Positions 1,929 to 13,753 of a DNA stretch of 13,753 nucleotides are shown here, piece after piece. The stretch covers positions 1-13,753 of the IMG/VR virus record IMGVR_UViG_3300029181_000068. One strand, 5' to 3'. Below the pieces are notes generated by a model that ran no database searches, had not been told where the DNA came from, and saw only the letters and a program-made list of their open reading frames with translations. Source of the stretch: a virus (Duplodnaviria > Heunggongvirae > Uroviricota > Caudoviricetes). The stretch's first letter is position 1. Each line of letters begins with the position of its first letter. The position numbers and the translations under genes are program-made.

Positions 1929-2356
1929 CACTGGCGCACCCATTGCCAGCCCTGCAGCCGTGGTGGTGGCTCCGGCACCTGCAATACGATCACGCACCTC
2001 CAGCGAACGGGCATATCCAGGCGAAACGTGCCCGGTGTTTCTCCGGTCTGCCACCACTCAATAATGCGGATCAGGAATCCGAACGGCTCCACCACCCGCC
2101 GCACGGCACTGGTGGTCCCTTTATGCTGATGAATATAAAAAGCATCCTTCACCACCTGGCGCTTGACGCTTTCTGTCCAGCCCTCGTCCCAGCGATCCAC
2201 AGAGAACGCCCAGGCGAGATAAGGCAGGAAACTGACCGGACAGGTTGCCGGATTCCACAAATCACGAAGCGGCACCTGCAGATCAGAAATCCCGCTGCAG
2301 GTTTGCGCCAGTCGGCGCTCCAGTGGTGTTGAACCCGGTGGCAGCAGACTATTCAT
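1928..2356 (-). CDS. I: Phage tail protein I (P2 gpI-like), apparently C-terminally truncated or frame-disrupted after about residue 114
   Basis: ORF of 142 aa. N-terminal ~114 aa (MNSLLPPGSTPLERRLAQ...LWNPATCP...LAWAFSVDRWDE...GTFRLD) resembles P2 gpI as I recall it (~176 aa). The last 28 aa (MPVRWRCVIVLQVPEPPPRLQGWQWVRQ) are Trp/Pro/Arg-rich and look like out-of-frame translation. Stop TGA at 1928-1930 overlaps the ATG at 1928-1926 of the downstream tape-measure frame. Confidence 0.75.
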   Translation of the reverse strand: MNSLLPPGSTPLERRLAQTCSGISDLQVPLRDLWNPATCPVSFLPYLAWAFSVDRWDEGWTESVKRQVVKDAFYIHQHKGTTSAVRRVVEPFGFLIRIIEWWQTGETPGTFRLDMPVRWRCVIVLQVPEPPPRLQGWQWVRQ

Positions 2357-2945
2357 CCGTTCCTCCGTTGGTTACGCTCCACTGCGTACATGATGCCGCC
2401 TGTGTTTTGTTCAGGACCACATCCGCCAGAGGAGAAGCCAGCTCCACACGCTGCACCCCCTCAACATGCAGGGCGGCAAAGATGGCGCTACGGCGAATAT
2501 CCCGACCAAGACGCGTCTGACTGGCGATGTACTTCTGCAGGCTGGCTTTTGCCGCTGCCATTACCGGCTCTGCTTCCGGTCCAGGATAGAGAAAAATGGT
2601 GGCTTCCACGCGATACGGGATGATTTCTGCGCTGCGAACCGTAAGACGGTCAGCCACCGGGCGGACGTTCTCACTGTTCAGAGCTTTTTCCACCACGTCC
2701 AGCAGGTCTTTTTCTGCAGTTCCATCGCCTTCGCGGCTAAGGACAGTCAGCACCACCTCTGCAGGTGCCGGGCTGGTTGCACTGGCATCCGCCACCCGAC
2801 CGTCGGCGCTTCGGGCATGAAATTCATAAGCTGCAGTTGGCCCCGCAACAGAAAGCCCTTCAAAGGCTGCAGGTACACGCAGGCGCAACGCTTCATCGCT
2901 TTCCATCACAGCTGCAACGGGCGGCAGCCTCCAGTACAAACTCAC
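2349..2945 (-). pseudogene. J: Baseplate assembly protein J (P2 gpJ-like), C-terminal ~2/3 only; N-terminal third missing
   Basis: 198-aa ORF whose track start is a GTG. The sequence PPVAAVMESDEALRLR...FEGLSVAG...HARSADGRVAD...RPVADR...LYPGPE...RLGRDIRRSAIFAALHVEGVQRVELASPLADVVL...TDE matches the C-terminal part of P2 gpJ (~302 aa) from memory. No native N-terminus or RBS. Overlaps the 3' end of the V fragment in another frame. Confidence 0.8.
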
Positions 2946-3357
2946 TGGTTTTCATGATGATGTTGTCAGCAGCCTCAATGACCATTGATTTGATGCCCCT
3001 GACATACCAGCGCCCGGTGGCGGGTTCGTATTCAAACCAGCCACCGTCAGGATGTTCTGTCACGCAGGCATCCGCCGACGTCGACGGTGGTGCGAACTGA
3101 TTCGAATAGACAGCGGGCAGCGCAAAGGCGGTTTCCAGATTGCCGCCCAGACTCAGCAGCACCACCTGCTCACCTTCCGATGGTCGCCACCATGTACGGG
3201 CATTCCCGGCACGCAGCGTCAGCCAGCTGATCCAGTTGGTTTCAAGCTCGCCCGTTTTCACCCGGCAAAGCCAGTTTTCCCTGTCCACTTCGGTGACTAC
3301 CCCTGTGCGGATCAGGTTGGTGATAAGGCGCATGATTTCGGTTAATTGTGCGTTCAT
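2893..3357 (-). CDS. V: Baseplate assembly/spike protein V (P2 gpV-like), N-terminal fragment ending in a premature stop
   Basis: 154-aa ORF with ATG at 3357-3355. N-terminus MNAQLTEIMRLITNLIRTGVVTEVD...RVKTG...WISWLTLRAGNARTWWRPSEGEQVVLLSLGGNLETAFALPAVYS has the gpV OB-fold pattern. Shorter than P2 gpV (~211 aa); its reading frame stops at 2893 inside the region where the J frame opens. Confidence 0.75.
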   Translation of the reverse strand: MNAQLTEIMRLITNLIRTGVVTEVDRENWLCRVKTGELETNWISWLTLRAGNARTWWRPSEGEQVVLLSLGGNLETAFALPAVYSNQFAPPSTSADACVTEHPDGGWFEYEPATGRWYVRGIKSMVIEAADNIIMKTSEFVLEAAARCSCDGKR

Positions 3358-3372
3358 AGGGAAAGGTTGCCA

Positions 3373-3930
3373 TCAGGGGAAGAAAGCCGGATTGCTTTCA
3401 CTCAGGACAGCGCCAATCGCTTTATGCAGACGCGCCCGTGACTGGTCCGGCATATCCAGACCGTCTGTCAGCTCCAGCGTCTGCAGCAACAGATCGGCAT
3501 CAAAGCCGGTGGCGGCAAGCATTGCGCTCTGCGCCGCGTCTGCCATTTCCTCTGCCAGCACGGTCTGCACATTGCGATTACCCAGCGGCATCACCCAGCC
3601 ATGACGCAGGGCGTGACGCCCGATCTCCAGCGCCCCGGCATAATCTCCGGCATCAATGCGCCACAGCATCACGTACATCAGCACGTCATCCTGTTGAGCG
3701 CCTCCGGCAGCCAGGACACCCTCCGCCCAGGCGGCGTACTTCGGCAGCAGCTCCACCTTGATTTCCGCTTTTTTGACCGTGGACTGAACGCCCTTGAGAC
3801 GGCGGCGGTCTTCCGCCAGTTGCAGCAGCATCAGGTCATAGCCCGACGCGTGGCGAACGCTGCCGCCCTCGCGGGCGGCCTGTTCAGCCTGAACGCGCAG
3901 GCGATGCTGCCGTGCGGGACTCAGGCTCAT
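3373..3930 (-). CDS. M: Terminase small (endonuclease) subunit, P2 gpM-like; possibly 3'-truncated
   Basis: 185-aa ORF, ATG at 3930-3928, 3 nt after the N stop (TAA 3936-3934). Resembles P2 gpM (QDDVLMYVMLWRIDAGDYAGALEIGRHALRHG, LELTDGLDMPDQSRARLHK). Shorter than the ~247 aa I recall for P2 gpM. Stop at 3373-3375 is only 15 bp from the V start. Confidence 0.8.
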   Translation of the reverse strand: MSLSPARQHRLRVQAEQAAREGGSVRHASGYDLMLLQLAEDRRRLKGVQSTVKKAEIKVELLPKYAAWAEGVLAAGGAQQDDVLMYVMLWRIDAGDYAGALEIGRHALRHGWVMPLGNRNVQTVLAEEMADAAQSAMLAATGFDADLLLQTLELTDGLDMPDQSRARLHKAIGAVLSESNPAFFP

Positions 3931-3933
3931 GAA

Positions 3934-4992
3934 TTACGCTCCGGTTTCTGCTGCTGCGGCGCTGAAGTCGCCAATCTGGATGTTTTCCACCAGTGCGGCG
4001 CAGCGGTAGTCCTCAACCACATAGGCTTCGTTAACGGATTCAAAGTTTTCAATCCGGTCACGTTTCGGGTTGTCGATAACTGAGCGGCGACGGGTGTCTT
4101 CCTGCCAGTAGATGGACAGGTTATCCAGACGGGTGATCAGCAGTGCATTCGGCGGGAAGAACGGCGCACGCACGGCCTGCAGGCCACCCATGCGTTTCTG
4201 ACTGATGATCATATCGGCAGCCAGTTTTTCACTGTTTTCCTGCTCTTTGTTGACCAGCGGGAAATACTTGTCAGACAGCAGTTCACGACCGCAAATCACC
4301 ACCAGATCGTCATCGTCCTGGTAGACCACATCGATAAGCTCATTGACGGCATCCATCACCACGGCGTCCAGGTTGGCATATTCGCCACCTTTCCCGACTT
4401 TCACCGCACCCGGTGTGGTTTCACCGCCCGTGGTGGTGCTGCCCATGACGTGATCCGGTGCATCTTCACGGATTTTCTGCAGCCAGCCTTTGTTCACATC
4501 CTGCAGCAGCGGGTTTTCGCTACGGTTGGAGGTTTTCGCACGCTTCACGCCGTTAAAGCCGATCATGATGCGGTCCAGAGCCTGACGTTTCACGATGGCG
4601 TCACGGATGCGCACCTGGAAATCCTGAAACTTCGCCCACAGGTCCAGCTTCGCGTAGGTCAGCACCGTGTCAAAGTTGGTCTGCTCGCATTTATATTCCA
4701 CATCGACCATCAGCGTCGGATCGACAGGTTCACGCTCTTTCGCGGTGGTGTCAGTGGTTCCGGCAATGGTGCTGCCAACTCCCAGCCCCAGCAGCTGACC
4801 GGACTGCTCAGTCACTGGCGTGACGTTAATCAGCGTCAGGAAAGCGGCGGACTGCTGGATCTGGTCTTCCAGCGTCTGCTGCACAGACGGCTCCACGGTG
4901 AACTTGCTGGACAGTTCTTCAACTGCCACACCGTTCAGACGCGCCAGCTGCTGCAGGTAAGCGTTAAAAGCAAAGCGGGTATTCTTCTTCAT
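3934..4992 (-). CDS. N: Major capsid protein, P2 gpN family
   Basis: 352-aa ORF. Near-collinear resemblance to P2 gpN as recalled (FNAYL...LNG, KFTVEPSV, IGFNGVKRA, NPLLQDVNKGWLQK, KVGKGG.YA.LDAVVMDA, DKYFPLVNKEQENSEKLAADMIISQKRMG, ENFES...YVVEDY). GGAG upstream of ATG 4992-4990. Confidence 0.95.
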   Translation of the reverse strand: MKKNTRFAFNAYLQQLARLNGVAVEELSSKFTVEPSVQQTLEDQIQQSAAFLTLINVTPVTEQSGQLLGLGVGSTIAGTTDTTAKEREPVDPTLMVDVEYKCEQTNFDTVLTYAKLDLWAKFQDFQVRIRDAIVKRQALDRIMIGFNGVKRAKTSNRSENPLLQDVNKGWLQKIREDAPDHVMGSTTTGGETTPGAVKVGKGGEYANLDAVVMDAVNELIDVVYQDDDDLVVICGRELLSDKYFPLVNKEQENSEKLAADMIISQKRMGGLQAVRAPFFPPNALLITRLDNLSIYWQEDTRRRSVIDNPKRDRIENFESVNEAYVVEDYRCAALVENIQIGDFSAAAAETGA

Positions 4993-5008
4993 CGGGTTTT
5001 GTGCTCCA

Positions 5009-5842
5009 TCAGCAATTGGTCAGAGTGTCAGCGGGGGCGTTACCGCCTGTTGCACGCTGGCGGTAGTCCTGGCGACTGTCTTCATGACTCAGCTTGTCCA
5101 CCAGTTCGTTAAAGGCGGTTTGCTGTGCCTGCAGGGCAGTCTCCAGCTCAGACAGGCGTTCTTCCTGCTCAGACAGGGATTTTTCGGTGCGTGCGCTCAG
5201 GTTCTGCTGCTCAGTGGCGACCAGCTCCACGGCCTTATGCACATCAGAGAACCGGGCGTCATCGGACTGCTCTTTTTTGGTAAACAGCGCCGTGACGCGG
5301 GCAAACAGGGACGGTTTGTCGTCCTGGATTTCTTCCAGTTCGATCACCGTTTCCTCTGCAGCGGTAAAGAGATTGGCAGGATTCTGCTTGCGGTTTGCCA
5401 GCGGGTTATGGGCTGCACTGGCGCTGAATGTCAGCATTTCCGTACCCAGACTGGCAGGGTCATCAGTGGCAGCCAGGCCGACCAGATAGGCTTTGCCCGT
5501 ATCAGCGAACTTCGGGCTGACTTCCATAGAGGTGAATAATTTCTGGCCTTTTTTCACCAGTTCCACCAGGGACTCCGTTGGCTCAACGTCGGCATACAGC
5601 GCCATCTTGCCTGCCAGCGGACCTTCCGTGATTTCTTCAGCAAACAGCGCCGTCACCTTGCCGTAGCGGTTAAAGGTGCTGTCCGGCAGATAAGACTTGA
5701 TGTGCTCAAGGTTAATCAGCGCGGTATACACCGCCGGGTTGTAGCTGGCTGCCATCTGTTCCAGCCATTCACGCTGGATTTCGCGTCCGTCGGTGGTGGC
5801 ACCTTCCACCCCGATGCGAAAACGCTTTGCTTTCACTGTCAT
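5009..5842 (-). CDS. O: Capsid scaffolding protein, P2 gpO family
   Basis: 277-aa ORF. Resembles P2 gpO (FRIGVEGATTDGREI, INLEHIKSYLPD, TSMEVSPKFADTGKAYLVGLAATDDPASLGTEML, ASDDARFSDVHKAV, C-terminal ATGG...TNC). GGAG 8 nt upstream of ATG 5842-5840. First gene of the leftward head operon. Confidence 0.95.
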   Translation of the reverse strand: MTVKAKRFRIGVEGATTDGREIQREWLEQMAASYNPAVYTALINLEHIKSYLPDSTFNRYGKVTALFAEEITEGPLAGKMALYADVEPTESLVELVKKGQKLFTSMEVSPKFADTGKAYLVGLAATDDPASLGTEMLTFSASAAHNPLANRKQNPANLFTAAEETVIELEEIQDDKPSLFARVTALFTKKEQSDDARFSDVHKAVELVATEQQNLSARTEKSLSEQEERLSELETALQAQQTAFNELVDKLSHEDSRQDYRQRATGGNAPADTLTNC

Positions 5843-5920
5843 GAGCCGTGCTCCGTTAGAAAAAACTTACTGGAGCCTTATGGTTGCGGTGATGGGGGCA
5901 GTGAAACAATGCGCGGTATT

Positions 5921-5938
5921 TGTACCGACAACCACACA
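5921..5938. promoter_or_regulatory. TGT-N12-ACA dyad (Ogr/Delta-type late activator box) in the divergent O/P late promoter region (5843-5984)
   Basis: Exact TGTaccgacaaccacACA in the 142-bp gap between divergent O (minus) and P (plus). P2-family late promoters carry TGT-N12-ACA centred near -55. The spacing fits the leftward O promoter best (dyad centre ~5929; plausible -10 CATAAG on the minus strand near 5876-5881; O ATG at 5842). Confidence 0.45.
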
Positions 5939-5984
5939 AACCGCAGGCGGGGAAAGCCTTCATTCAAGGCTGTAGGTTTGTGCC

Positions 5985-7751
5985 ATGAACACCACACTGA
6001 CACCCGCAGATCTCGATCCCCGTCGGCAGGCCATGCTGCTGTACTTTCAGGGATACCGCGTAGCCCGCATTGCTGAAATGCTGGGCGAGAAAGTTGCAAC
6101 CGTTCACAGCTGGAAAAAACGCGACAAGTGGGGTGACTATGGGCCGCTGGATCAGATGCAGCTCACCACCGCCGCACGCTACTGCCAGCTCATTATGAAG
6201 GAGCACAAAGAAGGGAAAGATTTCAAAGAGATTGACCTGCTGGCGCGCCAGTCGGAGCGCCATGCGCGGATCGGCAAGTTTAACAATGGCGGCAACGAAG
6301 CCGACTTAAACCCTAACGTCGCCAACCGCAACAAAGGCCCGCGCCGTCAGCCGGAAAAGAACGTTTTCACCGATGAACAGATTGAGAAGCTGGAAGAAAT
6401 CTTTTATTCCTCCATGTTCAACTACCAGCGCCACTGGTGGGAAGCCGGAAAAACCAACCGCATCCGCAACCTGCTGAAGTCACGCCAGATCGGCGCGACC
6501 TTTTACTTTGCCCGTGAAGCCCTGATTGACGCCCTGCTTACCGGACGTAACCAGATTTTCCTTTCTGCCAGTAAGGCACAGGCGCACGTCTTTAAGCAGT
6601 ACATCATCGACTTTGCCAAAGAAGTTGAGGTGGAGCTGAAAGGCGATCCTATGGTGCTACCTAATGGCGCAGCATTGTACTTTCTCGGCACCAACGCCCG
6701 TACGGCGCAGAGCTACCACGGCAACCTGTACCTTGATGAATATTTCTGGATACCGAAATTCCAGGAACTGCGCAAAGTTGCCTCCGGGATGGCCATTCAC
6801 AAGAAATGGCGACAAACCTACTTTTCCACGCCGTCCAGCCTGACCCACAGTGCCTATCCGTTCTGGTCCGGTGCGCTGTTTAACCGGGGCCGCGCCAAAG
6901 CGGACAAGGTGGATATTGACCTGACCCACAGCAATCTTGCGCGCGGCCTGCTCTGCCCTGACGGACAGTACCGCCAGATAGTCACTGTGGAAGATGCGGT
7001 GCGCGGCGGCTGTAACCTGTTCGACCTCGACCAGTTGCGCATGGAGTACAGCCCGGACGAATACCAGAACCTGTTGATGTGCGAGTTTGTGGACGATCTC
7101 GCGTCCGTGTTTCCGCTCAGCGAGCTGCAGGCGTGCATGGTGGACAGTTGGGAAGTCTGGACCGACTTTCATGCACTGGCCCTGCGCCCGTTTGGCTGGC
7201 GCGAAGTCTGGATCGGATACGACCCGGCGAAAGGCACGCAAAACGGCGACAGCGCCGGATGCGTGGTGGTGGCACCGCCAGCCGTGCCGGGTGGTAAGTT
7301 CCGCATTCTTGAGCGTCACCAGTGGCGCGGGATGGACTTCCGCGCCCAGGCTGACGCCATCAAAAAACTGACCGAACAGTACAACGTGACCTATATCGGT
7401 ATCGACTCAACCGGCGTTGGTCACGGGGTTTACGAGAACGTGAAAGCGTTTTTTCCTGCCGTCCGGGAGTTTGTCTACAACCCCAACGTTAAAAACGCCC
7501 TGGTACTCAAGGCCTACGACATTATTAGCCACCGCCGCCTGGAGTTTGACGCAGGGCACACCGACATAGCGCAGTCCTTTATGGCAATCCGTCGCGCCAC
7601 CACTGCCAGCGGCAACCGCCCGACCTATGAAGCCAGCCGCAGCGAAGAAGCCAGCCACGCCGATCTGGCCTGGGCAACAATGCACGCACTGTTTAATGAA
7701 CCGCTGCAGGGCGAGTCCGCCAATACCAGCAATATTGTGGAGATTTTTTGA
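5985..7751 (+). CDS. P: Terminase large (ATPase) subunit, P2 gpP family
   Basis: 588-aa ORF; P2 gpP is ~590 aa. Resembles the P2 terminase ATPase subunit (MLLYFQGYRVARIAEMLGEK, KSRQIGATFYF Walker A-like, NLYLDEYFWIP, IGYDPA...GDSAG). Stop TGA at 7749-7751 overlaps the Q ATG. Confidence 0.95.
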   Translation: MNTTLTPADLDPRRQAMLLYFQGYRVARIAEMLGEKVATVHSWKKRDKWGDYGPLDQMQLTTAARYCQLIMKEHKEGKDFKEIDLLARQSERHARIGKFNNGGNEADLNPNVANRNKGPRRQPEKNVFTDEQIEKLEEIFYSSMFNYQRHWWEAGKTNRIRNLLKSRQIGATFYFAREALIDALLTGRNQIFLSASKAQAHVFKQYIIDFAKEVEVELKGDPMVLPNGAALYFLGTNARTAQSYHGNLYLDEYFWIPKFQELRKVASGMAIHKKWRQTYFSTPSSLTHSAYPFWSGALFNRGRAKADKVDIDLTHSNLARGLLCPDGQYRQIVTVEDAVRGGCNLFDLDQLRMEYSPDEYQNLLMCEFVDDLASVFPLSELQACMVDSWEVWTDFHALALRPFGWREVWIGYDPAKGTQNGDSAGCVVVAPPAVPGGKFRILERHQWRGMDFRAQADAIKKLTEQYNVTYIGIDSTGVGHGVYENVKAFFPAVREFVYNPNVKNALVLKAYDIISHRRLEFDAGHTDIAQSFMAIRRATTASGNRPTYEASRSEEASHADLAWATMHALFNEPLQGESANTSNIVEIF

Positions 7752-8776
7752 TGGGAAAGAGTAAGAAAAACCGCGCTGCGGCGACGAATCAGCTCAAGCA
7801 TAAAAGCCAAACTTCAGCCGAAGCATTCAGCTTTGGCGATCCCGTTCCTGTTCTGGACCGCCGTGAACTGCTGGACTATGTGGAATGCGTACAGATGGAT
7901 CGCTGGTATGAGCCGCCCGTCAGCTTTGACGGACTGGCACGAACCTTCCGCGCCGCCGTGCATCACAGCTCACCAATTGCGGTGAAATGCAACATTCTGA
8001 CCAGTACCTACATCCCTCACCCGCTGCTCAGCCAGCAGGCTTTTTCACGTTTTGTGCAGGACTATCTGGTATTTGGTAACGCCTACCTGGAGAAACGCAC
8101 GAACCGCTTCGGTGAAGTTATCGCCCTTGAGCCTGCTCTGGCAAAATACACCCGACGCGGGTTAGACCTGGATACCTACTGGTTTGTGCAATACGGTATG
8201 ACAACCCAGCCGTATCAGTTCACGAAAGGCAGCATTTTTCATCTGATGGAACCTGACATCAACCAGGAGATCTACGGCCTACCAGGTTATCTTTCTGCCA
8301 TTCCGTCAGCCCTGCTCAACGAGTCCGCCACGCTGTTCCGCCGGAAGTATTACATTAACGGCAGCCATGCAGGCTTCATCATGTACATGACCGATGCCGC
8401 GCAGAACCAGGAGGATGTGAACAACCTCCGCAATGCGATGAAAAGCGCCAAAGGCCCTGGCAACTTCCGCAACCTGTTTATGTACTCGCCTAACGGCAAA
8501 AAGGACGGGCTTCAGATCATCCCGTTGTCAGAAGTCGCGGCGAAGGATGAATTTCTGAACATCAAGAACGTCAGCCGTGATGACATGATGGCGGCACACC
8601 GCGTACCGCCTCAGATGATGGGAATTTTGCCGAATAATGTTGGGGGTTTTGGTGATGTGGAGAAGGCGAGCTGCGTCTTCGTAAGAAATGAACTATTACC
8701 ACTTCAAAAAAGATTCATGGAAATAAACAGATGGCTTGGTCATGAAATTATAAATTTTGAAATATATACATTATAA
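7751..8776 (+). CDS. Q: Portal (capsid portal vertex) protein, P2 gpQ family; last ~30 codons AT-rich
   Basis: The ORF track starts at TTG 7748; the likely start is ATG 7751 (MGKSKKNR...), overlapping the P stop as TGATG. 341 aa; P2 gpQ is ~344 aa. Portal-like throughout (GNAYLEKR, YWFVQYG, GLPGYLSAIPSALLNE, YYINGSHAGFIMYMTD, MMGILPNNVGGFGDVEKA). Codon usage turns AT-rich from ~8680 (AGA, CTA, TTA, ATA codons). Confidence 0.95.
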   Translation: MGKSKKNRAAATNQLKHKSQTSAEAFSFGDPVPVLDRRELLDYVECVQMDRWYEPPVSFDGLARTFRAAVHHSSPIAVKCNILTSTYIPHPLLSQQAFSRFVQDYLVFGNAYLEKRTNRFGEVIALEPALAKYTRRGLDLDTYWFVQYGMTTQPYQFTKGSIFHLMEPDINQEIYGLPGYLSAIPSALLNESATLFRRKYYINGSHAGFIMYMTDAAQNQEDVNNLRNAMKSAKGPGNFRNLFMYSPNGKKDGLQIIPLSEVAAKDEFLNIKNVSRDDMMAAHRVPPQMMGILPNNVGGFGDVEKASCVFVRNELLPLQKRFMEINRWLGHEIINFEIYTL

Positions 8777-8781
8777 AACCC

Positions 8782-8804
8782 AACGGCATCACAATGATGC
8801 CGTT
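8782..8804. terminator. Hairpin between convergent Q and the PIN-like gene; probable intrinsic terminator for the minus-strand gene
   Basis: AACGGCATC-acaat-GATGCCGTT: 9-bp perfect stem with a 5-nt loop. On the minus strand it is followed by GGGTTTTAT. No T-run follows it on the plus strand. Confidence 0.4.
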
Positions 8805-8813
8805 ATGAACGAA

Positions 8814-9875
8814 TTAATATTCAAAATTATTTTCTTCAATAGAGAACTCAATCCCTCGGGATAACTTATCAATATTCACATCAAATGCGATATCTGTTAA
8901 TTCACCATCCTCGATTTCATACATAACTTCAATTTCAATATCGAAACTAATCTCTTGAACTTCAGTTCGTGTGGTTGTCTCCATTGGAATCATTACTTTA
9001 TCTTCGCTATCCCAATACCCATTATTAAAGTCTGGACCAGAAACAGTAACTTCAAAATCTACAGAAACAGAGAAGGTCGCTAGACAATAATTATTGTCAA
9101 TCTTAATTATTGATGGTTCAAAGTCATCAATATTGACGACTTCAAATGAATCCAATTCAGCGTCTTCCCAAGTTGAAACGTTATATCCATCGGCATCATT
9201 GAGTTGGGCAATTACGTCCGCTCTTATGTCTTCACGTTTGCTTTCGATAAACTGCATCAATTTATTACTTAATTCGTTTGTATGCGTATTGTATTCACCT
9301 AGAAACTTATCAAGTGAATCAATTTGATGAAGATTGTTTTTACCATCACAATAATTTTTTAAGTCACTATCCTCAGAAATGATATACACATCTTCATCAT
9401 TAACAAATCGCTCTACCGCAGCTAAAGTGATTGCATCAGGAAACTCACTTTTTTTCTTATTTTGCCCAAATGGTGGTTCTTTGCCAAAGTATTTATCTAA
9501 AACCTCATTAAGATCTATCACTTCTATTGTAGCTAATTTGGCGTGACATCCTTTCAAAAAATCATCAAAAACTTTTTGTGCTGCTTCGTGAATTTCATGT
9601 TCGTTAAATTGCTGAAAAAAACCATGGAGCGGTCCATTATCAATACTATTCAAAAGCCTAGCTTTTCTTTGTACTGTGTTTATAGCCTGCAGAGCATCCT
9701 TTATTGATTCCTCTATTTTACCTTTTACTTCTCTCTCTACAACTGTAGTTGTAATTAAGACTAAATCACCTTTCGCACATAATTCATGGAAAGCTTTAAA
9801 TGCTACCCCCTCAAAATGAAGACCAGCCTTTACGTACGTTTGTGTGTCAATAAATACCTTATTTGTTTTAAGCAT
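8814..9875 (-). CDS. PIN-like nuclease-domain protein with an acidic C-terminal domain; candidate stand-alone defence or abortive-infection gene
   Basis: 353-aa ORF in AT-rich DNA. ATG 9875-9873 with AGGA 5 nt upstream. N-terminal ~170 aa carry PIN-like acidic motifs (KVFIDTQ; LVLITTTVVEREV; EFPDAITLAAVERFV; VYIISEDSDL). C-terminal ~150 aa are very Asp/Glu-rich with alternating hydrophobics (FDIEIEVMYEIEDGELTDIAFDVNID). Domain call is by motif pattern only. Confidence 0.7.
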   Translation of the reverse strand: MLKTNKVFIDTQTYVKAGLHFEGVAFKAFHELCAKGDLVLITTTVVEREVKGKIEESIKDALQAINTVQRKARLLNSIDNGPLHGFFQQFNEHEIHEAAQKVFDDFLKGCHAKLATIEVIDLNEVLDKYFGKEPPFGQNKKKSEFPDAITLAAVERFVNDEDVYIISEDSDLKNYCDGKNNLHQIDSLDKFLGEYNTHTNELSNKLMQFIESKREDIRADVIAQLNDADGYNVSTWEDAELDSFEVVNIDDFEPSIIKIDNNYCLATFSVSVDFEVTVSGPDFNNGYWDSEDKVMIPMETTTRTEVQEISFDIEIEVMYEIEDGELTDIAFDVNIDKLSRGIEFSIEENNFEY

Positions 9876-10001
9876 ACTAATCCTAATAAGTTTTAAGATC
9901 CGCTACAATTGTTTATGTTTATTTTTTATCAATAATCATACGTAGTTAAGATTATCCATGTCGAAAAATTAAATCAACTTCAATTTATCCTTAAGCGCGC
10001 G

Positions 10002-10020
10002 CTCGTATCCCCGCCACGCC
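10002..10020 (-). other. Candidate cos site (19-nt cohesive end, P2/186-like)
   Basis: Minus strand reads GGCGTGGCGGGGATACGAG followed by CGCGCGCTTAAGG. The P2 left end as I remember it is GGCGAGGCGGGGAAAGCAC then TGCGCGCTGACGG (about 24 of 32 matches; position 5 T as in phage 186). Orientation fits P2: cos, then Q and P transcribed toward cos. It is a GC-rich patch inside otherwise AT-rich accessory DNA. Confidence 0.5.
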
Positions 10021-10382
10021 TGCCCGCTTTATGTAGTGGTTTTCATGCACCTGCATGACATAAGCAAAAGCACGCCAGTTCTGGCTGACTTCAGCAAAAA
10101 CGATCCTCAAACGATCATGCGATCTCATGCGTCATAGTCATGCGCTGCCAAGGGAAGCGTAAATCCGTATCTGAATGACTGCTGAAAAGCGAATCATACG
10201 GGTTTACAAAGATGAAAGTTCGCTGTGAGCGAGAAGCGAACCTTGCAACTTTGTTGGCACAGTTTTAACACCAATTTTTTGAGGATAGCTAGAAAACTTG
10301 TGGCATAAAGGATCAGTTTCCCGATCGAACTTTTTATCAAGAAGGGCTCATAGCAATCGCCAGAAGAAGTGATGTTAAAGTA

Positions 10383-10411
10383 TTGAGCTCGGCGTTAAGA
10401 TTAAATAAATT
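10383..10411 (+). promoter_or_regulatory. Candidate sigma70-type promoter for the SIR2-HerA operon
   Basis: TTGAGC, 17-nt spacer, TAAATT, about 35 nt upstream of ATG 10445 (RBS AAGGA at 10435-10439). Weak match in AT-rich DNA; other candidates exist. Confidence 0.25.
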
Positions 10412-10444
10412 ACAGACTAATCCAATGTTTTGTGGAAGGATAAG

Positions 10445-11488
10445 ATGGCAGTCAAGCGCGCATACTACGGTAACGATAGTGACCGAGACTACTTAGAGCG
10501 GATATTTCAGTCAGCTAACATTAACTTTCTCATCGGATCAGGTGCATCCCTCCCAGCGATTAAAGTACTGGGGACAATCGAAACGGATCTTCAGCAGCTT
10601 ATTAATGATGAACAGGAAGATGAATACTTAAGGATGGCAGCTGACTTTTTGTCAGATGTTTGGCTACCTCATGAATGCATGTTGAAGCGCGGCTACGGCA
10701 CCCCCTTCGCACCTCAGGTGATCACCGATTTGGAATGTACCCGTGCAAATTATGATGCATTTATGTCTTCTCTGGAAAAGATACTGACCCGCCGCCGAAC
10801 TGGCCTACTTCCGAGGCGTATTAACGTTTTTACAACTAATTATGATTTATTCATCGAAGAAGCTGCCACACGTAATAACAATATTCTTTTTAATGATGGA
10901 TTCAATAGAAGAGCAAGTATTTTGGGAGATGCGGAATTTGATGCGGGTAGCTTTAATCATTCTGTAAGTGCAACCGGAAATCTGTATAATTATAAAGTTG
11001 AGCTTCCTACTGTTAACCTTATAAAACTTCATGGTTCGCTCTCTTGGCAGCATTCTAAAGGGAAAATCATTTATCGTATTGCAGATATTAAGCCGCTTGA
11101 CTTTCCCACCCTAGCCGAAATGAAAGGATGGGTACTTGCTCATGCACTTATTCTTCCACGTAAGGAGAAGTTTAAAGAGACTCTACTACAGAACGTTTAT
11201 TATGATTTACTGAGAACCTATTCCAACGAGCTTGATAAAGAAGCAACTTTACTAATTGTCTTTGGGTTCTCGTTTGCTGATGAGCACATTGAAACGATAA
11301 CTAAAAAAGCCCTGCGCAACGCCACCCTGAAGCTACTGATCTTTGCTTTCGATGAGGCCAGTGTTAACGGCTTTATGGAGAAATTTCGGGATTACTCAAA
11401 CGTAGAGATTATTTATCGGCCGGGAAGAAATGTTGATTTTCCGGTAATGAATAACATTATCACGTGCTATCTGGGAGGCTCGAGATGA
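10445..11488 (+). CDS. SIR2-like (sirtuin-fold) NAD-binding protein, defence-associated type
   Basis: ORF track starts at TTG 10430; the likely start is ATG 10445 (MAVKRAYYG...), 5 nt after AAGGA. 347 aa. Sirtuin-like motifs: Gly-rich loop FLIGSGAS (10532-10549), VFTTNYDLFIEEA (TQN-like) and IKLHGSLSW (catalytic His region). AT-rich codon usage. Stop TGA at 11486-11488 overlaps the HerA ATG. Confidence 0.9.
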   Translation: MAVKRAYYGNDSDRDYLERIFQSANINFLIGSGASLPAIKVLGTIETDLQQLINDEQEDEYLRMAADFLSDVWLPHECMLKRGYGTPFAPQVITDLECTRANYDAFMSSLEKILTRRRTGLLPRRINVFTTNYDLFIEEAATRNNNILFNDGFNRRASILGDAEFDAGSFNHSVSATGNLYNYKVELPTVNLIKLHGSLSWQHSKGKIIYRIADIKPLDFPTLAEMKGWVLAHALILPRKEKFKETLLQNVYYDLLRTYSNELDKEATLLIVFGFSFADEHIETITKKALRNATLKLLIFAFDEASVNGFMEKFRDYSNVEIIYRPGRNVDFPVMNNIITCYLGGSR

Positions 11489-13344
11489 GCAGGCATTTTA
11501 CTGAAGAGGAAGCGGTGCTCCGTATAGGCGAAGTCTGTGAGGTTTCTGGACGCGCTGTGACAATTTTGGTCGATAAAAACAAAAATCTCAGTGACTTGTT
11601 TTATCAGGGAAAAGTTCTAAGAAATGTATCAGTGGGTAGCTTCATTGAGATCAAAAAAGGTTTCATGAGCCTGATCGGCAAGGTTGAAGCGGAACGAATC
11701 ATTGAGGAAAAACATCTCGCTGGGAGCGGCAGTGATGCCTGGCGATATCGGCGATACCTGACCTCTACTCTTACGGGTTACATTGATCGTACTGGTTGCT
11801 TCATTGGTGGTTCGCGTGAACTACCTCTCATCGGCAATGAAGTCTTCGTGGTAACTGAAGAGATGATACAGACGGTTCATCAGATAGCTGATGCAGACGA
11901 AACTGTAATGAGGTTTACTCGTACAGATCTTGAAGATATTGAAATTGCACTACCAATCAATGGTCTTATTAATTCCCACATTGCCATTTTCGGTAATACA
12001 GGCAGCGGAAAGTCAAATACCCTAGCCGCGCTATACAAAGCAGGTATTGCCCAAGTTAAACATATTCTCGGCAACCACTTTAGTGAAAGATGCAAATTTA
12101 TTCTATTCGACTTTAATGGAGAATATACTGCCCCACGCTGTATTACTGACGAGAAGACGGTTTATAATCTCAACACGCACCATGCAAATGGTGACAAACT
12201 TCCTCTACCCAGAGAGGTTCTACTTGAGCATGATATGCTCTCAGTTCTAACCGATGCAACAGACAAAACACAGAAACCTTTCCTGAAGAGAGTTCTTGAG
12301 TTTCGCAAGAAAGTGATGACTGCTGATAATCCTCTTGAGTTTATGCGCAATATCCTGAAGAAAAAAGTCAGACAAAATCTCTTTAGTAGCGACAAACCCA
12401 AATGCGATACTATAAATCAGTTTCTTAGCCCAATTTTCAAAGATGACCCAGAACTTATATCTGATCTTGAGTATCATTCAACTGCATATAAATGGAAATT
12501 GAGGGGTGGTAGTATTTTCAATACAGAAGCTGATACTGAGCGCTCCTATCTATTCAGTCTTGCAAGCAATTTTTCATTTAAAACTGATATGATTGAAGAA
12601 CTGTTGGACTTTATGTACTTACAGTTAATACAGGAATATTTATCTAACAAGTCTAACCCTGAACATATTTCACCAGTTATAAATAGAATGAGTGCTAACC
12701 GTAAAGATATAGCCAAAATATTTGATACTTCCGGACAGTCTGACTTTTGGGGTGAACATAATTTCACGGTTGTGAATCTAAATATGGTTAATATAACCAT
12801 GAAAAAAACGCTTCCTCTTTTGATAGCCAAGTGGGCTTACAATATGAAGAAAATGTCTACAGAGAAATCTACACTGCACATCATTATAGATGAAGCCCAC
12901 AATATTTTGTCTAATACTTCTTTTCGGGAAACGGAAAGTTGGAGAGATTATCGTCTGGAAACTTTTGAGGAAATCATAAAGGAGGGGAGAAAATTTGGAG
13001 TTTTTATCACAATTTCCAGTCAACGCCCTAATGATATATCGTCGACAATCATATCCCAAGCACACAATTATTTTATTCATCGCCTTATTAATCAGAATGA
13101 TCTGTACGCAATTGAAAAATCAGTATCATATATAGATCGACTGACTGAAGAGTCGATTCCAACGCTATCTACAGGAACCTGTATTTTTAGTGGTATCGTC
13201 TGCCCCATGCCGCTCAAATTAAGGGTAGCTGAACTTCCAATTGAAGAAAAACCTAAGAGTAATACTATTTCCTTCAACGATTTAATACCTGAGAGGCTGG
13301 GAGAGGATGACCAGAGCGACTACGTAATAACCAGCCCTCACTAA
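11485..13344 (+). CDS. HerA-like (FtsK/HerA superfamily) ATPase, partner of the SIR2-like protein
   Basis: ORF track starts at GTG 11464 inside the SIR2 gene; the likely start is ATG 11485 (MSRHFTEEE...), with GGGAGG 6 nt upstream and an ATGA overlap with the SIR2 stop. 619 aa. Walker A FGNTGSGKSNT (11992-12015), Walker B LHIIIDEAH (12880-12900), and a downstream FITISSQRPNDIS motif. AT-rich. Confidence 0.9.
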   Translation: MSRHFTEEEAVLRIGEVCEVSGRAVTILVDKNKNLSDLFYQGKVLRNVSVGSFIEIKKGFMSLIGKVEAERIIEEKHLAGSGSDAWRYRRYLTSTLTGYIDRTGCFIGGSRELPLIGNEVFVVTEEMIQTVHQIADADETVMRFTRTDLEDIEIALPINGLINSHIAIFGNTGSGKSNTLAALYKAGIAQVKHILGNHFSERCKFILFDFNGEYTAPRCITDEKTVYNLNTHHANGDKLPLPREVLLEHDMLSVLTDATDKTQKPFLKRVLEFRKKVMTADNPLEFMRNILKKKVRQNLFSSDKPKCDTINQFLSPIFKDDPELISDLEYHSTAYKWKLRGGSIFNTEADTERSYLFSLASNFSFKTDMIEELLDFMYLQLIQEYLSNKSNPEHISPVINRMSANRKDIAKIFDTSGQSDFWGEHNFTVVNLNMVNITMKKTLPLLIAKWAYNMKKMSTEKSTLHIIIDEAHNILSNTSFRETESWRDYRLETFEEIIKEGRKFGVFITISSQRPNDISSTIISQAHNYFIHRLINQNDLYAIEKSVSYIDRLTEESIPTLSTGTCIFSGIVCPMPLKLRVAELPIEEKPKSNTISFNDLIPERLGEDDQSDYVITSPH

Positions 13345-13357
13345 TTAACAAAGTGCT

Positions 13358-13377
13358 GAAGCGGTAACGACCGCTTC
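13358..13377. terminator. Hairpin downstream of HerA; possible weak terminator
   Basis: GAAGCGGT-aacg-ACCGCTTC: 8-bp perfect stem, 14 nt after the HerA stop (TAA 13342-13344). No clean T-tract on either side. Confidence 0.3.
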
Positions 13378-13488
13378 TAGCACAAAGCGGACGATCACTT
13401 ATCAAAATGCCCGCCCACCTTACGCCTCGTTTCACTCGTTGCCCAAACTAGCCCCCATCAGAATGAATCCTCCTGGAGGCAACGTTTC

Positions 13489-13722
13489 TTAATGCAGCCA
13501 GCTGTCGTCTTCCCACACTTTCTGCATAATTTTCATCACTTGTTTTCTTTCTTCATCCAGTTGCAGTCCGGTCAGTTCCACACCGTTAGAGCTACCTTTG
13601 CGGATACGAATTACCGTTTTGGGATACAGGGGGCGCAGATTGCGGTAAAGCTCGGATTCAAGGGCGTCCAGGGTAGACTGGCTAATCTTCTGCTCTTTAT
13701 CGATCATTATTTCAATGCGCAT
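13489..13722 (-). CDS. DinI-like family protein
   Basis: Track ORF starts at ATG 13746; the likely start is ATG 13722-13720 (MRIEIMIDKEQ...), with GAGGTG 6 nt upstream. 77 aa. Resembles E. coli DinI (MRIEVTIAK..., ~81 aa) in length, N-terminus and acidic C-terminus (WEDDSW). Backbone-like GC content. Confidence 0.8.
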   Translation of the reverse strand: MRIEIMIDKEQKISQSTLDALESELYRNLRPLYPKTVIRIRKGSSNGVELTGLQLDEERKQVMKIMQKVWEDDSWLH

Positions 13723-13753
13723 AAAAGTCACCTCAACTGATGACATCCATTGA

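What the first reader, a model, noticed from the sequence alone, without database searches (positions are those of the whole stretch)
10445..13344. SIR2-like plus HerA-like ATPase operon (SIR2-HerA type anti-phage system) as prophage cargo
Two translationally coupled genes (ATGA overlap at 11485-11488; GGGAGG RBS) encode a sirtuin-fold protein (GSGAS, TTNYD, LHGS motifs) and a HerA/FtsK-type ATPase (Walker A GNTGSGKS, Walker B IIIDEAH). SIR2+HerA pairs are an experimentally described anti-phage system (Gao et al. 2020) thought to act through NAD+ depletion. Here the pair is AT-rich relative to the backbone and sits next to cos on the side where P2 carries tin/old. The tight coupling fits a stoichiometric complex.
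Basis: partly seen in the sequence, partly recalled or inferred. Interest (0 to 1): 0.75.

Follow-up and report, generated by a model that had tools for sequence, protein, structure and literature searches.

The report
Known SIR2–HerA phage-defence operon in prophage
The two genes are a real SIR2 plus HerA anti-phage pair, a known kind of defence that kills infected cells by destroying NAD+, sitting in the known defence-gene hotspot of a P2-like prophage, so the finding is correct but ordinary.

Summary
Window 10445-11488 encodes a 347-aa SIR2 protein and 11485-13344 a 619-aa HerA ATPase. They overlap by ATGA, and all quoted motifs are present. Both proteins match PADLOC's SIR2-HerA models over their full length (698 and 885 bits). 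The catalytic N132/D134/H196 and Walker A K176 / Walker B D469-E470 are invariant in homologs. The predicted folds hit the solved SIR2-HerA complexes first. A cos-like site lies at 10002-10020. The operon therefore occupies the position and orientation of old/tin in phage P2.

None of this is new. Rousset et al. 2022 catalogued SIR2+HerA in the P2 hotspot. Their Table S5A lists an arrangement of this composition (PIN_12 + SIR2 + HerA + DinI), with the RefSeq accessions carried by a 100%-identical E. coli locus.

One nuance: this pair is not the characterised E. coli "Nezha". It belongs to a distant clade (~20% identity to all solved systems) for which I found no solved structure and no paper naming its accessions.

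Noticed in passing: the host prophage is a deletion remnant lacking tail, lysis and head-completion genes. The cargo slot on the other side of cos (here a PIN_12 gene) varies independently.

Verdict: interpretation supported, already known, low interest.

The parts
10002..10020 (.). cos-like cohesive-end site (CTCGTATCCCCGCCACGCC). It separates the portal-side cargo slot from the old/tin-side slot that holds SIR2-HerA.
   Evidence: 14 of 19 bases match the reverse complement of P2 cosL/cosR, within a ~65-nt conserved cos region.
10214..10444 (+). Upstream non-coding region that travels with the operon; presumed promoter and 5' UTR, promoter not located.
   Evidence: Homology with the 91%-identical copy in a non-P2 island starts at window 10214. 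The sigma-70 scan found no convincing + strand site here. No credible small ORF.
10445..11488 (+). SIR2-family NADase gene (347 aa). Rossmann motif G31-S-G-A-S35; catalytic N132, D134, H196.
   Evidence: Pfam SIR2_2. PADLOC SIR2 PDLC04080, 698 bits, residues 1-347 of 347. Invariant residues in 27 homologs. AlphaFold model pLDDT 83.5, with the top 38 PDB hits all SIR2 subunits of SIR2-HerA complexes.
11473..11478 (+). GGGAGG ribosome-binding site for HerA, inside the end of the SIR2 gene.
   Evidence: Read directly from the sequence, six nt before ATG 11485.
11485..13344 (+). HerA-type hexameric ATPase/translocase gene (619 aa). Walker A G170-NTGSGK176-S; Walker B D469-E470.
   Evidence: Pfam DUF87. 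PADLOC HerA PDLC04097, 885 bits. Invariant motifs in 25 homologs. The model matches HerA of SIR2-HerA and DUF4297-HerA complexes and archaeal HerA.
13353..13383 (+). Strong hairpin nine nt after the HerA stop codon; possible operon terminator or mRNA-end stabiliser, with no U-tract.
   Evidence: MFE -21.2 kcal/mol, z = -4.4, 0 of 200 shuffles fold as well. It lies inside the block shared with the 91% variant, which ends near 13367-13384.

Best explanation
This is a functional two-gene SIR2-HerA (also called Nezha) anti-phage system. It is carried as accessory cargo in the cos-proximal hotspot of a P2-like prophage, which is now defective. By analogy with characterised systems, the likely mechanism is as follows. 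The two co-translated proteins assemble into a large complex: a HerA hexamer docked by its N-terminal beta-barrel onto a two-layered SIR2 ring of 12-14 subunits. On infection by another phage, the SIR2 NADase hydrolyses cellular NAD+ to ADP-ribose and nicotinamide, using N132/D134/H196. This starves the phage and arrests the infected cell (abortive infection), which protects the lysogen population. HerA ATPase activity (K176) is needed for defence. The signal that triggers the system is unknown. Shown here: gene pair, motifs, family membership, fold, genomic placement and conservation. Inferred from homologs: complex formation, NAD+ depletion and the defence phenotype.
For: Full-length PADLOC hits to the SIR2 and HerA models of the SIR2-HerA system, plus Pfam SIR2_2 + DUF87. 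N132/D134/H196 are invariant and correspond to the putative catalytic N163/D165/H212 of Paenibacillus SIR2 (PMC11472057). Walker A K176 is invariant and corresponds to K173, whose K173A mutant was tested as catalytically inactive HerA; that paper states that catalytic-residue mutations in either SIR2 or HerA abolished T7 protection (PMC11472057). Both predicted structures hit solved SIR2-HerA complexes from S. aureus, E. coli and Paenibacillus first. The pair, usually with the 4-nt overlap, is kept in relatives down to ~42% identity, in prophages, a restriction-enzyme island, integrase/relaxase elements and a plasmid contig. The locus sits where P2 carries old/tin and is transcribed away from cos as they are. 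Rousset et al. list SIR2+HerA as the 14th most common system of this hotspot and list these accessions. NAD+ depletion and abortive infection by SIR2-HerA have been shown experimentally in other members (bioRxiv 10.1101/2021.12.14.472415; PMC11559045).
Against: This clade has not been tested, as far as I could find. No paper in the library names the accessions. The proteins are distant from every solved system: phmmer E-values are 3.5e-21 to 8.5e-5 for SIR2 and 1e-27 to 2e-20 for HerA, with 16-21% identity in the structural alignments. Both proteins score far below the NCBIfam equivalog cut-offs: 99.8 vs 500 for SIR2_antiphage, 138.7 vs 800 for HerA_antiphage. Characterised members already differ from one another in oligomer state and ATPase activity (PMC11514289), so details cannot be transferred safely. 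The HerA model is poor in the C-terminal RecA half (pLDDT <50 at 473-485, 516-538 and 546-575). No promoter was located.
Confidence: 0.85

Rival explanations
1. The pair is a defence system but works mainly on DNA. HerA translocase/helicase activity together with a nuclease activity of the complex would degrade phage DNA, with NAD+ hydrolysis secondary.
For: E. coli SIR2-HerA is reported to have NADase, helicase and nuclease activities, as summarised in PMC11559045. S. aureus SIR2-HerA showed NADase and nuclease activity (PMC11514289). The related DUF4297-HerA systems pair HerA with a different effector and have DNA-bound structures.
Against: The NADase catalytic residues are invariant across the whole clade. 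SIR2 catalytic mutations abolished defence or NAD+ hydrolysis in characterised members. A phage escapes V. cholerae Nezha simply by regenerating NAD+. No nuclease domain was detected in either protein.
Confidence: 0.08
2. The operon is a silent or decaying passenger. It sits in a prophage that is being deleted away and no longer provides any function.
For: The carrier prophage has lost its tail, lysis and head-completion genes. A related locus (L014) has an even larger deletion. No clear promoter was found.
Against: Both ORFs are intact with all catalytic residues. The block is 99.7-100% identical in the E. coli chromosomes compared, most of them with intact-looking prophages. Every deletion spares the hotspot.
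Confidence: 0.05
3. The pair serves the prophage or host in DNA metabolism (HerA-NurA-like end resection, FtsK-like translocation or packaging help) rather than in immunity.
For: HerA belongs to the FtsK/HerA translocase superfamily. There are weak hits to archaeal repair HerA, FtsK_SpoIIIE, TrwB and a terminase PHROG. The locus is adjacent to cos.
Against: All those hits are far below the family cut-offs, whereas the defence-specific models match full-length. No NurA partner is present. The locus is variable cargo that is replaced by unrelated genes in sister prophages, so it is dispensable for the phage.
Confidence: 0.02

Closest known systems
E. coli SIR2-HerA / Nezha (PDB 8J4U, 8SU9, 8SUB, 8UAE, 8SXX)
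   Same: Two-gene SIR2 + HerA operon with the same folds. It is also carried in the P2-like prophage hotspot: the representative HerA of Rousset's system 14 scores 676 bits over its full held length against the 8J4U HerA.
   Different: A different clade. The HerA proteins align over only ~135 residues at 28% identity. phmmer E-values are 1.5e-11 (SIR2) and 1.9e-20 (HerA). SIR2 here is 347 aa against 415 aa.
Paenibacillus sp. 453MF SIR2-HerA (Gao et al. 2020; PDB 8W9L, 8WIV, 8WLD)
   Same: The best sequence and fold match for HerA. The catalytic N/D/H and Walker A Lys are equivalent. Defence against T7 requires both enzymes (PMC11472057).
   Different: About 19% identity. PsHerA is 696 aa with a C-terminal arm domain (aa 576-696) for which the 619-aa protein here has no room.
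Staphylococcus aureus SaSir2-HerA (PDB 8YHX, 8YHO)
   Same: The best sequence and fold match for SIR2. NADase is switched on allosterically by HerA binding (PMC11514289).
   Different: About 21% identity. SaSir2 is 428 aa and dimeric when alone, and SaHerA lacks ATPase activity. Which of these traits apply here is unknown.
P2 old-tin exclusion genes
   Same: Same genomic slot (between cos and the replication gene A side), same orientation away from cos, AT-rich accessory cargo that excludes other phages (PMC9122126).
   Different: Unrelated proteins and mechanism: Old is annotated an AAA-family ATPase/exonuclease that blocks lambda, and Tin blocks T-even phages.
DUF4297-HerA defence system (PDB 8XAU, 8ZIQ, 9C1M)
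   Same: A homologous defence-type HerA.
   Different: The partner there is a DUF4297 protein; here the partner is a SIR2 NADase.

Membership tests
SIR2-HerA (Nezha) anti-phage system | Adjacent, co-oriented SIR2-domain gene and HerA-family ATPase gene forming one operon | tested here: met
   10445-11488 and 11485-13344 on the + strand with a 4-nt overlap. Pfam SIR2_2 + DUF87.
SIR2-HerA (Nezha) anti-phage system | Both proteins match the system-specific profile models | tested here: met
   PADLOC SIR2 PDLC04080, 698 bits, residues 1-347 of 347. PADLOC HerA PDLC04097, 885 bits, residues 9-606.
SIR2-HerA (Nezha) anti-phage system | SIR2 NADase catalytic Asn/Asp/His and the Rossmann GxGxS motif intact | tested here: met
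   G31, G33, A34, S35, N132, D134 and H196 are invariant in 27 homologs down to 40% identity. The equivalent residues in PsSIR2 are N163/D165/H212.
SIR2-HerA (Nezha) anti-phage system | HerA Walker A Lys and Walker B acidic pair intact | tested here: met
   G170-S177 including K176, and D469-E470-A-H, are invariant in 25 homologs.
SIR2-HerA (Nezha) anti-phage system | Folds match solved SIR2-HerA subunits better than other SIR2 or HerA proteins | tested here: met
   For the SIR2 model, ranks 1-38 are SIR2 chains of SIR2-HerA entries (E down to 1e-15); KomBC, DSR2, ThsA and Avs5 follow at E of about 1e-6 or weaker. For the HerA model, ranks 1-5 are Paenibacillus SIR2/HerA entries, and DUF4297-HerA appears from rank 6. 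The HerA model is weak in residues 473-575.
SIR2-HerA (Nezha) anti-phage system | Gene pairing conserved in relatives and located in mobile or defence contexts | tested here: met
   SIR2+DUF87 are adjacent in all 7 non-P2 loci examined and in all 8 P2-like prophage loci. Six of the seven non-P2 loci have mobile or defence-type neighbours (restriction enzyme/IS, integrase, relaxase, Rep3/IS1); the 75% copy has mostly metabolic neighbours and an IS5 about 5 kb away.
SIR2-HerA (Nezha) anti-phage system | Assembly of a HerA hexamer with a 12-14-subunit SIR2 ring; HerA-dependent NADase activation | not testable with these tools
   Needs co-purification, cryo-EM or a multimer prediction.
SIR2-HerA (Nezha) anti-phage system | Protection against phage with NAD+ depletion on infection | not testable with these tools
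   Experimental. Shown only for other members.
NCBIfam equivalogs SIR2_antiphage (NF042942) / HerA_antiphage (NF042943, NF042944) | Score at or above the curated equivalog cut-off | tested here: not met
   99.8 vs 500 bits; 138.7 vs 800 bits; 117.5 vs 850 bits. The pair is therefore not an ortholog of the systems those models were built on, but a separate clade of the same system type.
P2-like prophage cos-proximal defence hotspot (Rousset et al. 2022) | Located between portal gene Q and replication gene A, next to cos, with content that varies among syntenic prophages | tested here: met
   Portal gene at 7748-8776, cos at 10002-20, DinI at 13489-13722, and gpA next in sister loci. Other prophages carry unrelated genes at this place. 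An arrangement of this composition is listed in Table S5A.
DUF4297-HerA system | HerA partnered with a DUF4297 protein | tested here: not met
   The partner is SIR2_2, with no DUF4297 hit.
HerA-NurA DNA end-resection machinery | NurA nuclease partner and a repair-type HerA | tested here: not met
   No NurA gene is present. Archaeal HerA equivalogs score 72.6 vs 800 and 60 vs 970 bits.
Other SIR2 defence systems (Thoeris ThsA, DSR1/2, SIR2-pAgo, Avs5) | SIR2 fused to SLOG, a long C-terminal sensor or a STAND domain, or paired with ThsB or pAgo | tested here: not met
   The protein is 347 aa with a SIR2 domain only, and its neighbour is HerA. The Aga_SIR2 PADLOC models score at most 57.5 bits against 698 bits for the SIR2-HerA model.

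The most novel reading that the evidence does not exclude
This enterobacterial clade has a short 347-aa SIR2 and shares ~20% identity with the three structurally characterised systems. I found no solved structure and no paper naming its accessions, so it may not simply copy them. It could assemble differently or respond to a different cue. For example, HerA might sense DNA ends or translocation intermediates made by the packaging machinery of competing cos or pac phages. That could explain why it is repeatedly kept next to cos even while the rest of the prophage is deleted away.
Probability: 0.1. Interest if true: 0.45.

Novelty: already known. Interest (0 to 1): 0.15.

Why it matters
It matters little for discovery. 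SIR2-HerA is an established NAD+-depleting defence system with several cryo-EM structures. P2-like prophages are a published reservoir of such systems, and this protein pair is already in RefSeq, matches PADLOC's models full-length and appears in a published supplementary table. The modest value is practical. The window gives a clean, compact natural example (~3.2 kb with its upstream region and hairpin) of a SIR2-HerA clade for which I found no solved structure or dedicated study. That clade could be compared with the characterised E. coli Nezha, which occupies the same prophage hotspot. The locus also illustrates defence cargo outliving the decay of its prophage.

Tried and rejected
- **Rfam scan** of 8700-13753 at a permissive threshold gave only a chance mir-34 hit at E = 1. 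I found no regulatory RNA.
- **Promoter and terminator scan.** It found 16 promoter-like sites against 13.9 expected, none convincing upstream of SIR2. The promoter remains unlocated.
- **Small ORFs in 9876-10444.** Only 22-48 codon ORFs with no support. I rejected a hidden third gene.
- **Upstream alignment** across the 91%, 75% and Klebsiella variants showed conservation only with the 91% copy and no shared motif.
- **Phage genome collection.** There was no DNA match to the operon. The protein search found only 30%-identity matches in two Streptococcus phages. This clade is therefore known only from prophages and islands in bacterial genomes.
- **Paper search** for the two RefSeq accessions found nothing in main texts.
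- **PIN_12 as a third component.** I rejected this. The PIN gene lies on the other side of cos on the opposite strand, occurs in 36 complete genomes without SIR2-HerA, and is replaced by other genes in prophages with the identical SIR2-HerA.
- **GTG 11464 and TTG 10430 as true starts.** I rejected both in favour of the ATGs.
Full report
**1. Observation.**
- An ATG at 10445, preceded by GGAAGG at 10434-10439, opens a 347-codon frame that ends at TGA 11486-11488.
- An ATG at 11485, preceded by GGGAGG at 11473-11478, opens a 619-codon frame that ends at TAA 13342-13344. The two genes therefore overlap in ATGA at 11485-11488.
- The mechanical ORF list extends both frames to upstream TTG and GTG codons. 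Three things support the ATGs: RefSeq annotates them in a 100%-identical E. coli locus, Met1-Ala2 of SIR2 is nearly invariant in homologs, and the 4-nt overlap recurs in relatives.
- All quoted motifs are present: GSGAS 31-35, TTNYD 130-134 and LHGS 195-198 in SIR2; GNTGSGKS 170-177 and IIIDEAH 466-472 in HerA.
- GC content is 41.8% and 39.3% for the two genes against 56.5% for the phage backbone at 1-8776.

**2. Identity of the proteins.**
- Pfam gives SIR2_2 (E 1.3e-12) and the HerA central domain DUF87 (E 3.7e-19), both above gathering cut-offs.
- PADLOC-DB gives full-length matches to one SIR2 model (PDLC04080, 698 bits, residues 1-347 of 347) and one HerA model (PDLC04097, 885 bits). Dozens of weaker hits go to other SIR2 and HerA models.
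- NCBIfam's anti-phage SIR2 and HerA equivalogs are hit, but far below their cut-offs: 99.8 vs 500 bits and 138.7 vs 800 bits.
- Against the PDB, the best sequence relatives are subunits of solved SIR2-HerA complexes, but only distantly: S. aureus SIR2 at E 3.5e-21, E. coli SIR2 at 1.5e-11, Paenibacillus HerA at 1.2e-27.
- I collected homologs and aligned 27 SIR2 and 25 HerA sequences reaching down to 40-50% identity.
- In SIR2, G31/G33/A34/S35, T130-T-N132-Y-D134 and H196-G-S are invariant. In HerA, the whole Walker A (G170-S177, with K176) and D469-E470-A-H are invariant.
- These correspond to the putative catalytic N163/D165/H212 of Paenibacillus SIR2 and to HerA K173. The K173A mutant was tested as catalytically inactive HerA, and the paper states that catalytic-residue mutations in either protein abolished protection from T7 (PMC11472057).
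- The AlphaFold SIR2 model is good (pLDDT 83.5). Its top 38 PDB matches are all SIR2 chains of SIR2-HerA entries, followed by KomBC, DSR2, ThsA and Avs5.
- The HerA model is moderate (pLDDT 76.0, poor in residues 473-575). It matches the Paenibacillus SIR2/HerA entries first, then HerA of DUF4297-HerA complexes and of the other SIR2-HerA complexes, and archaeal HerA.

**3. Genomic setting.**
- Upstream lie P2-type genes: terminase endonuclease subunit M, capsid protein N, scaffold protein O, terminase ATPase P (5985-7751) and portal protein Q (7748-8776). Downstream is a DinI-like gene (13489-13722, minus strand).
- Window 10002-10020 (CTCGTATCCCCGCCACGCC) matches 14 of 19 bases of the P2 cohesive end. 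It is embedded in a ~65-nt stretch that aligns with the circularised P2 cos region.
- In P2, old and tin lie between cos and gene A and are transcribed away from cos. SIR2-HerA has the same position and orientation here.
A 353-aa PIN_12-domain gene (8814-9875, minus strand, 33.7% GC) fills the short space between the portal gene and cos.

**4. Distribution.**
- The operon occurs in 18 of 5,426 complete E. coli genomes, always chromosomal: 13 at 99.8% identity or more, 3 at 91% and 2 at 75%.
- The exact SIR2 sequence is indexed in 1,762 blocks of the assembly collection. All eight loci examined are P2-like prophages with the same cos-to-DinI block.
- The 91% copy lies in an island beside ypjA with a restriction endonuclease and IS elements. 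The 75% copy sits mostly among metabolic genes, with an IS5 about 5 kb away.
- More distant homologs (41-62% identity) keep the SIR2+DUF87 pair next to integrases, a relaxase or a Rep3 plasmid replicon. None of these contexts looks like a core housekeeping operon, although the 75% copy has no obvious defence neighbours.
- No deposited phage genome carries this clade.

**5. Prior knowledge.**
- SIR2+HerA was discovered as a defence system by Gao et al. 2020. It causes NAD+ depletion and an abortive-infection phenotype (bioRxiv 10.1101/2021.12.14.472415).
- Cryo-EM shows a HerA hexamer bound to a SIR2 12- or 14-subunit ring, with HerA-dependent activation of the NADase (PMC11472057; PMC11514289).
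- V. cholerae Nezha restricts three phages, and one phage counters it by regenerating NAD+ (PMC11559045).
- Rousset et al. 2022 (PMC9122126) defined the gpQ-gpA cos-proximal region of P2-like prophages as a defence hotspot.
- Their Table S5B lists "SIR2 | DUF87 = SIR2 + HerA (Gao et al., 2020)" as system 14, with 188 occurrences.
- Their Table S5A lists contig NZ_QRLO01000001 with "SIR2_2 + hypothetical + DinI + DUF87 + PIN_12" and accessions WP_028985770 + WP_029364119. These accessions annotate the locus that is 100% identical to the window's operon. The gene composition matches the window's (PIN_12, SIR2, HerA, DinI).
- The finding is thus already catalogued.

**6. A nuance.**
- The representative HerA of Rousset's system 14 scores 676 bits over its full held length against the structurally characterised E. 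coli Nezha HerA (8J4U).
- It aligns with the window's HerA over only ~135 residues at 28% identity.
- Two distant SIR2-HerA clades therefore occupy the same P2 hotspot. The window carries the one for which I found no solved structure and no paper naming its accessions.
- Its SIR2 is shorter (347 aa against 381-428 aa). Its HerA has no room for the 121-residue C-terminal arm domain of the Paenibacillus protein.

**7. Mechanism and rivals.**
- Most likely (0.85), the pair is an active SIR2-HerA system. The proteins are co-expressed and assemble, and on infection the SIR2 NADase depletes NAD+ while HerA ATPase activity is required.
- Shown here: gene structure, family membership, conserved catalytic residues, folds and context. 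Inferred from other members: the complex, NADase activation and the phenotype.
- The trigger is unknown, even for characterised members. An ATP-level sensing model has been proposed for the S. aureus system.
- Rivals are a mainly DNA-directed mode of defence (0.08), a silent passenger in a decaying prophage (0.05) and a non-immune DNA-metabolism role (0.02).

**8. Seen in passing.**
- Compared with intact relatives, the window's prophage has three internal deletions. Window 1-2015 is an internal piece of the tape-measure gene, joined at ~2013-2015 to a truncated tail protein I gene.
- The second junction, at ~2918-2926, removes W and parts of J and V. The third, at ~3384-3390, removes S, R, the lysis cassette, X, L and the 3' end of M.
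- Pfam confirms the truncated I, J, V and M products. A sister locus with the same PIN_12 + SIR2-HerA hotspot (99.4% identity) has one larger deletion from T into P.
- The carrier is therefore a defective remnant whose defence cargo is intact, unless the junctions are assembly artefacts, which I could not check.
- Prophages with the identical SIR2-HerA block carry different genes on the portal side of cos: retron Ec67, another RT with an STM3845-family protein, AIPR, HIRAN plus an unknown protein, a 557-aa unknown protein, or PIN_12.
- The homology break falls at 9974-9995, immediately left of cos. The two slots flanking cos thus assort independently.

**9. Verdict.** The system is already known as a kind, in this hotspot, and by these accessions. 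Interest is low (0.15). The remaining open point is that this particular clade appears not to have been studied experimentally.

Noticed in passing
window 1-3930 (junctions near 2013-2015, 2918-2926, 3384-3390): The P2-like prophage is a deletion remnant. An internal fragment of the tape-measure gene T is joined to a truncated tail protein I gene. W and parts of J and V are missing. S, R, the lysis cassette, X, L and the 3' end of M are also missing. The junctions show only 3-9 nt of overlap between the flanking matches. No complete E. coli genome shares these junctions. I could not exclude an assembly artefact.
   Followed up: partly
window 8814-9875 (- strand): A 353-aa protein with an N-terminal PIN_12 domain (E 1.5e-25) and an unassigned C-terminal half, 33.7% GC, sits between the portal gene and cos. 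It has no PADLOC, NCBIfam or PHROG hit and no solved relative. It is present at 99.7% identity or more in 36 of 5,426 complete E. coli genomes, never with SIR2-HerA there, and next to varying partners (KAP/P-loop NTPase, HEPN, HNH, DUF8087). It is a candidate single-gene defence or toxin cargo.
   Followed up: partly
window 9974-10020; loci L001, L014-L021: The two cargo slots flanking cos assort independently. Prophages with a 99.7-99.9% identical cos-SIR2-HerA-DinI block carry six different gene sets on the portal side (PIN_12, retron Ec67, RVT_1 + STM3845, AIPR, HIRAN + a 304-aa protein, a 557-aa unknown protein). The homology break lies just left of cos.
   Followed up: partly
L014 (GCA_027273855.1, JAPXCK010000004.1) 4815-7307: A sister locus with the same PIN_12 + SIR2-HerA hotspot (99.4% identity over window 6855-13753) has a single larger deletion that fuses the tape-measure gene to the terminase ATPase gene. 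This suggests stepwise prophage decay that spares the defence cargo.
   Followed up: partly
window 8781-8805: An 11-bp-stem hairpin with a T-run lies between the convergent portal and PIN_12 genes. It is probably the terminator of the PIN gene or a bidirectional terminator.
   Followed up: no
window 13353-13383: A strong hairpin (-21.2 kcal/mol, z = -4.4) lies nine nt after the HerA stop and has no U-tract. It lies between the convergent HerA and DinI-like genes.
   Followed up: partly
Rousset et al. 2022 Table S5B, system 14, versus window 11485-13344: Two distant SIR2-HerA clades occupy the same P2 hotspot in E. coli. One is the structurally characterised Nezha type (its HerA scores 676 bits against PDB 8J4U). 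The other is the window's clade, which shares only 28% identity over ~135 residues with it.
   Followed up: yes
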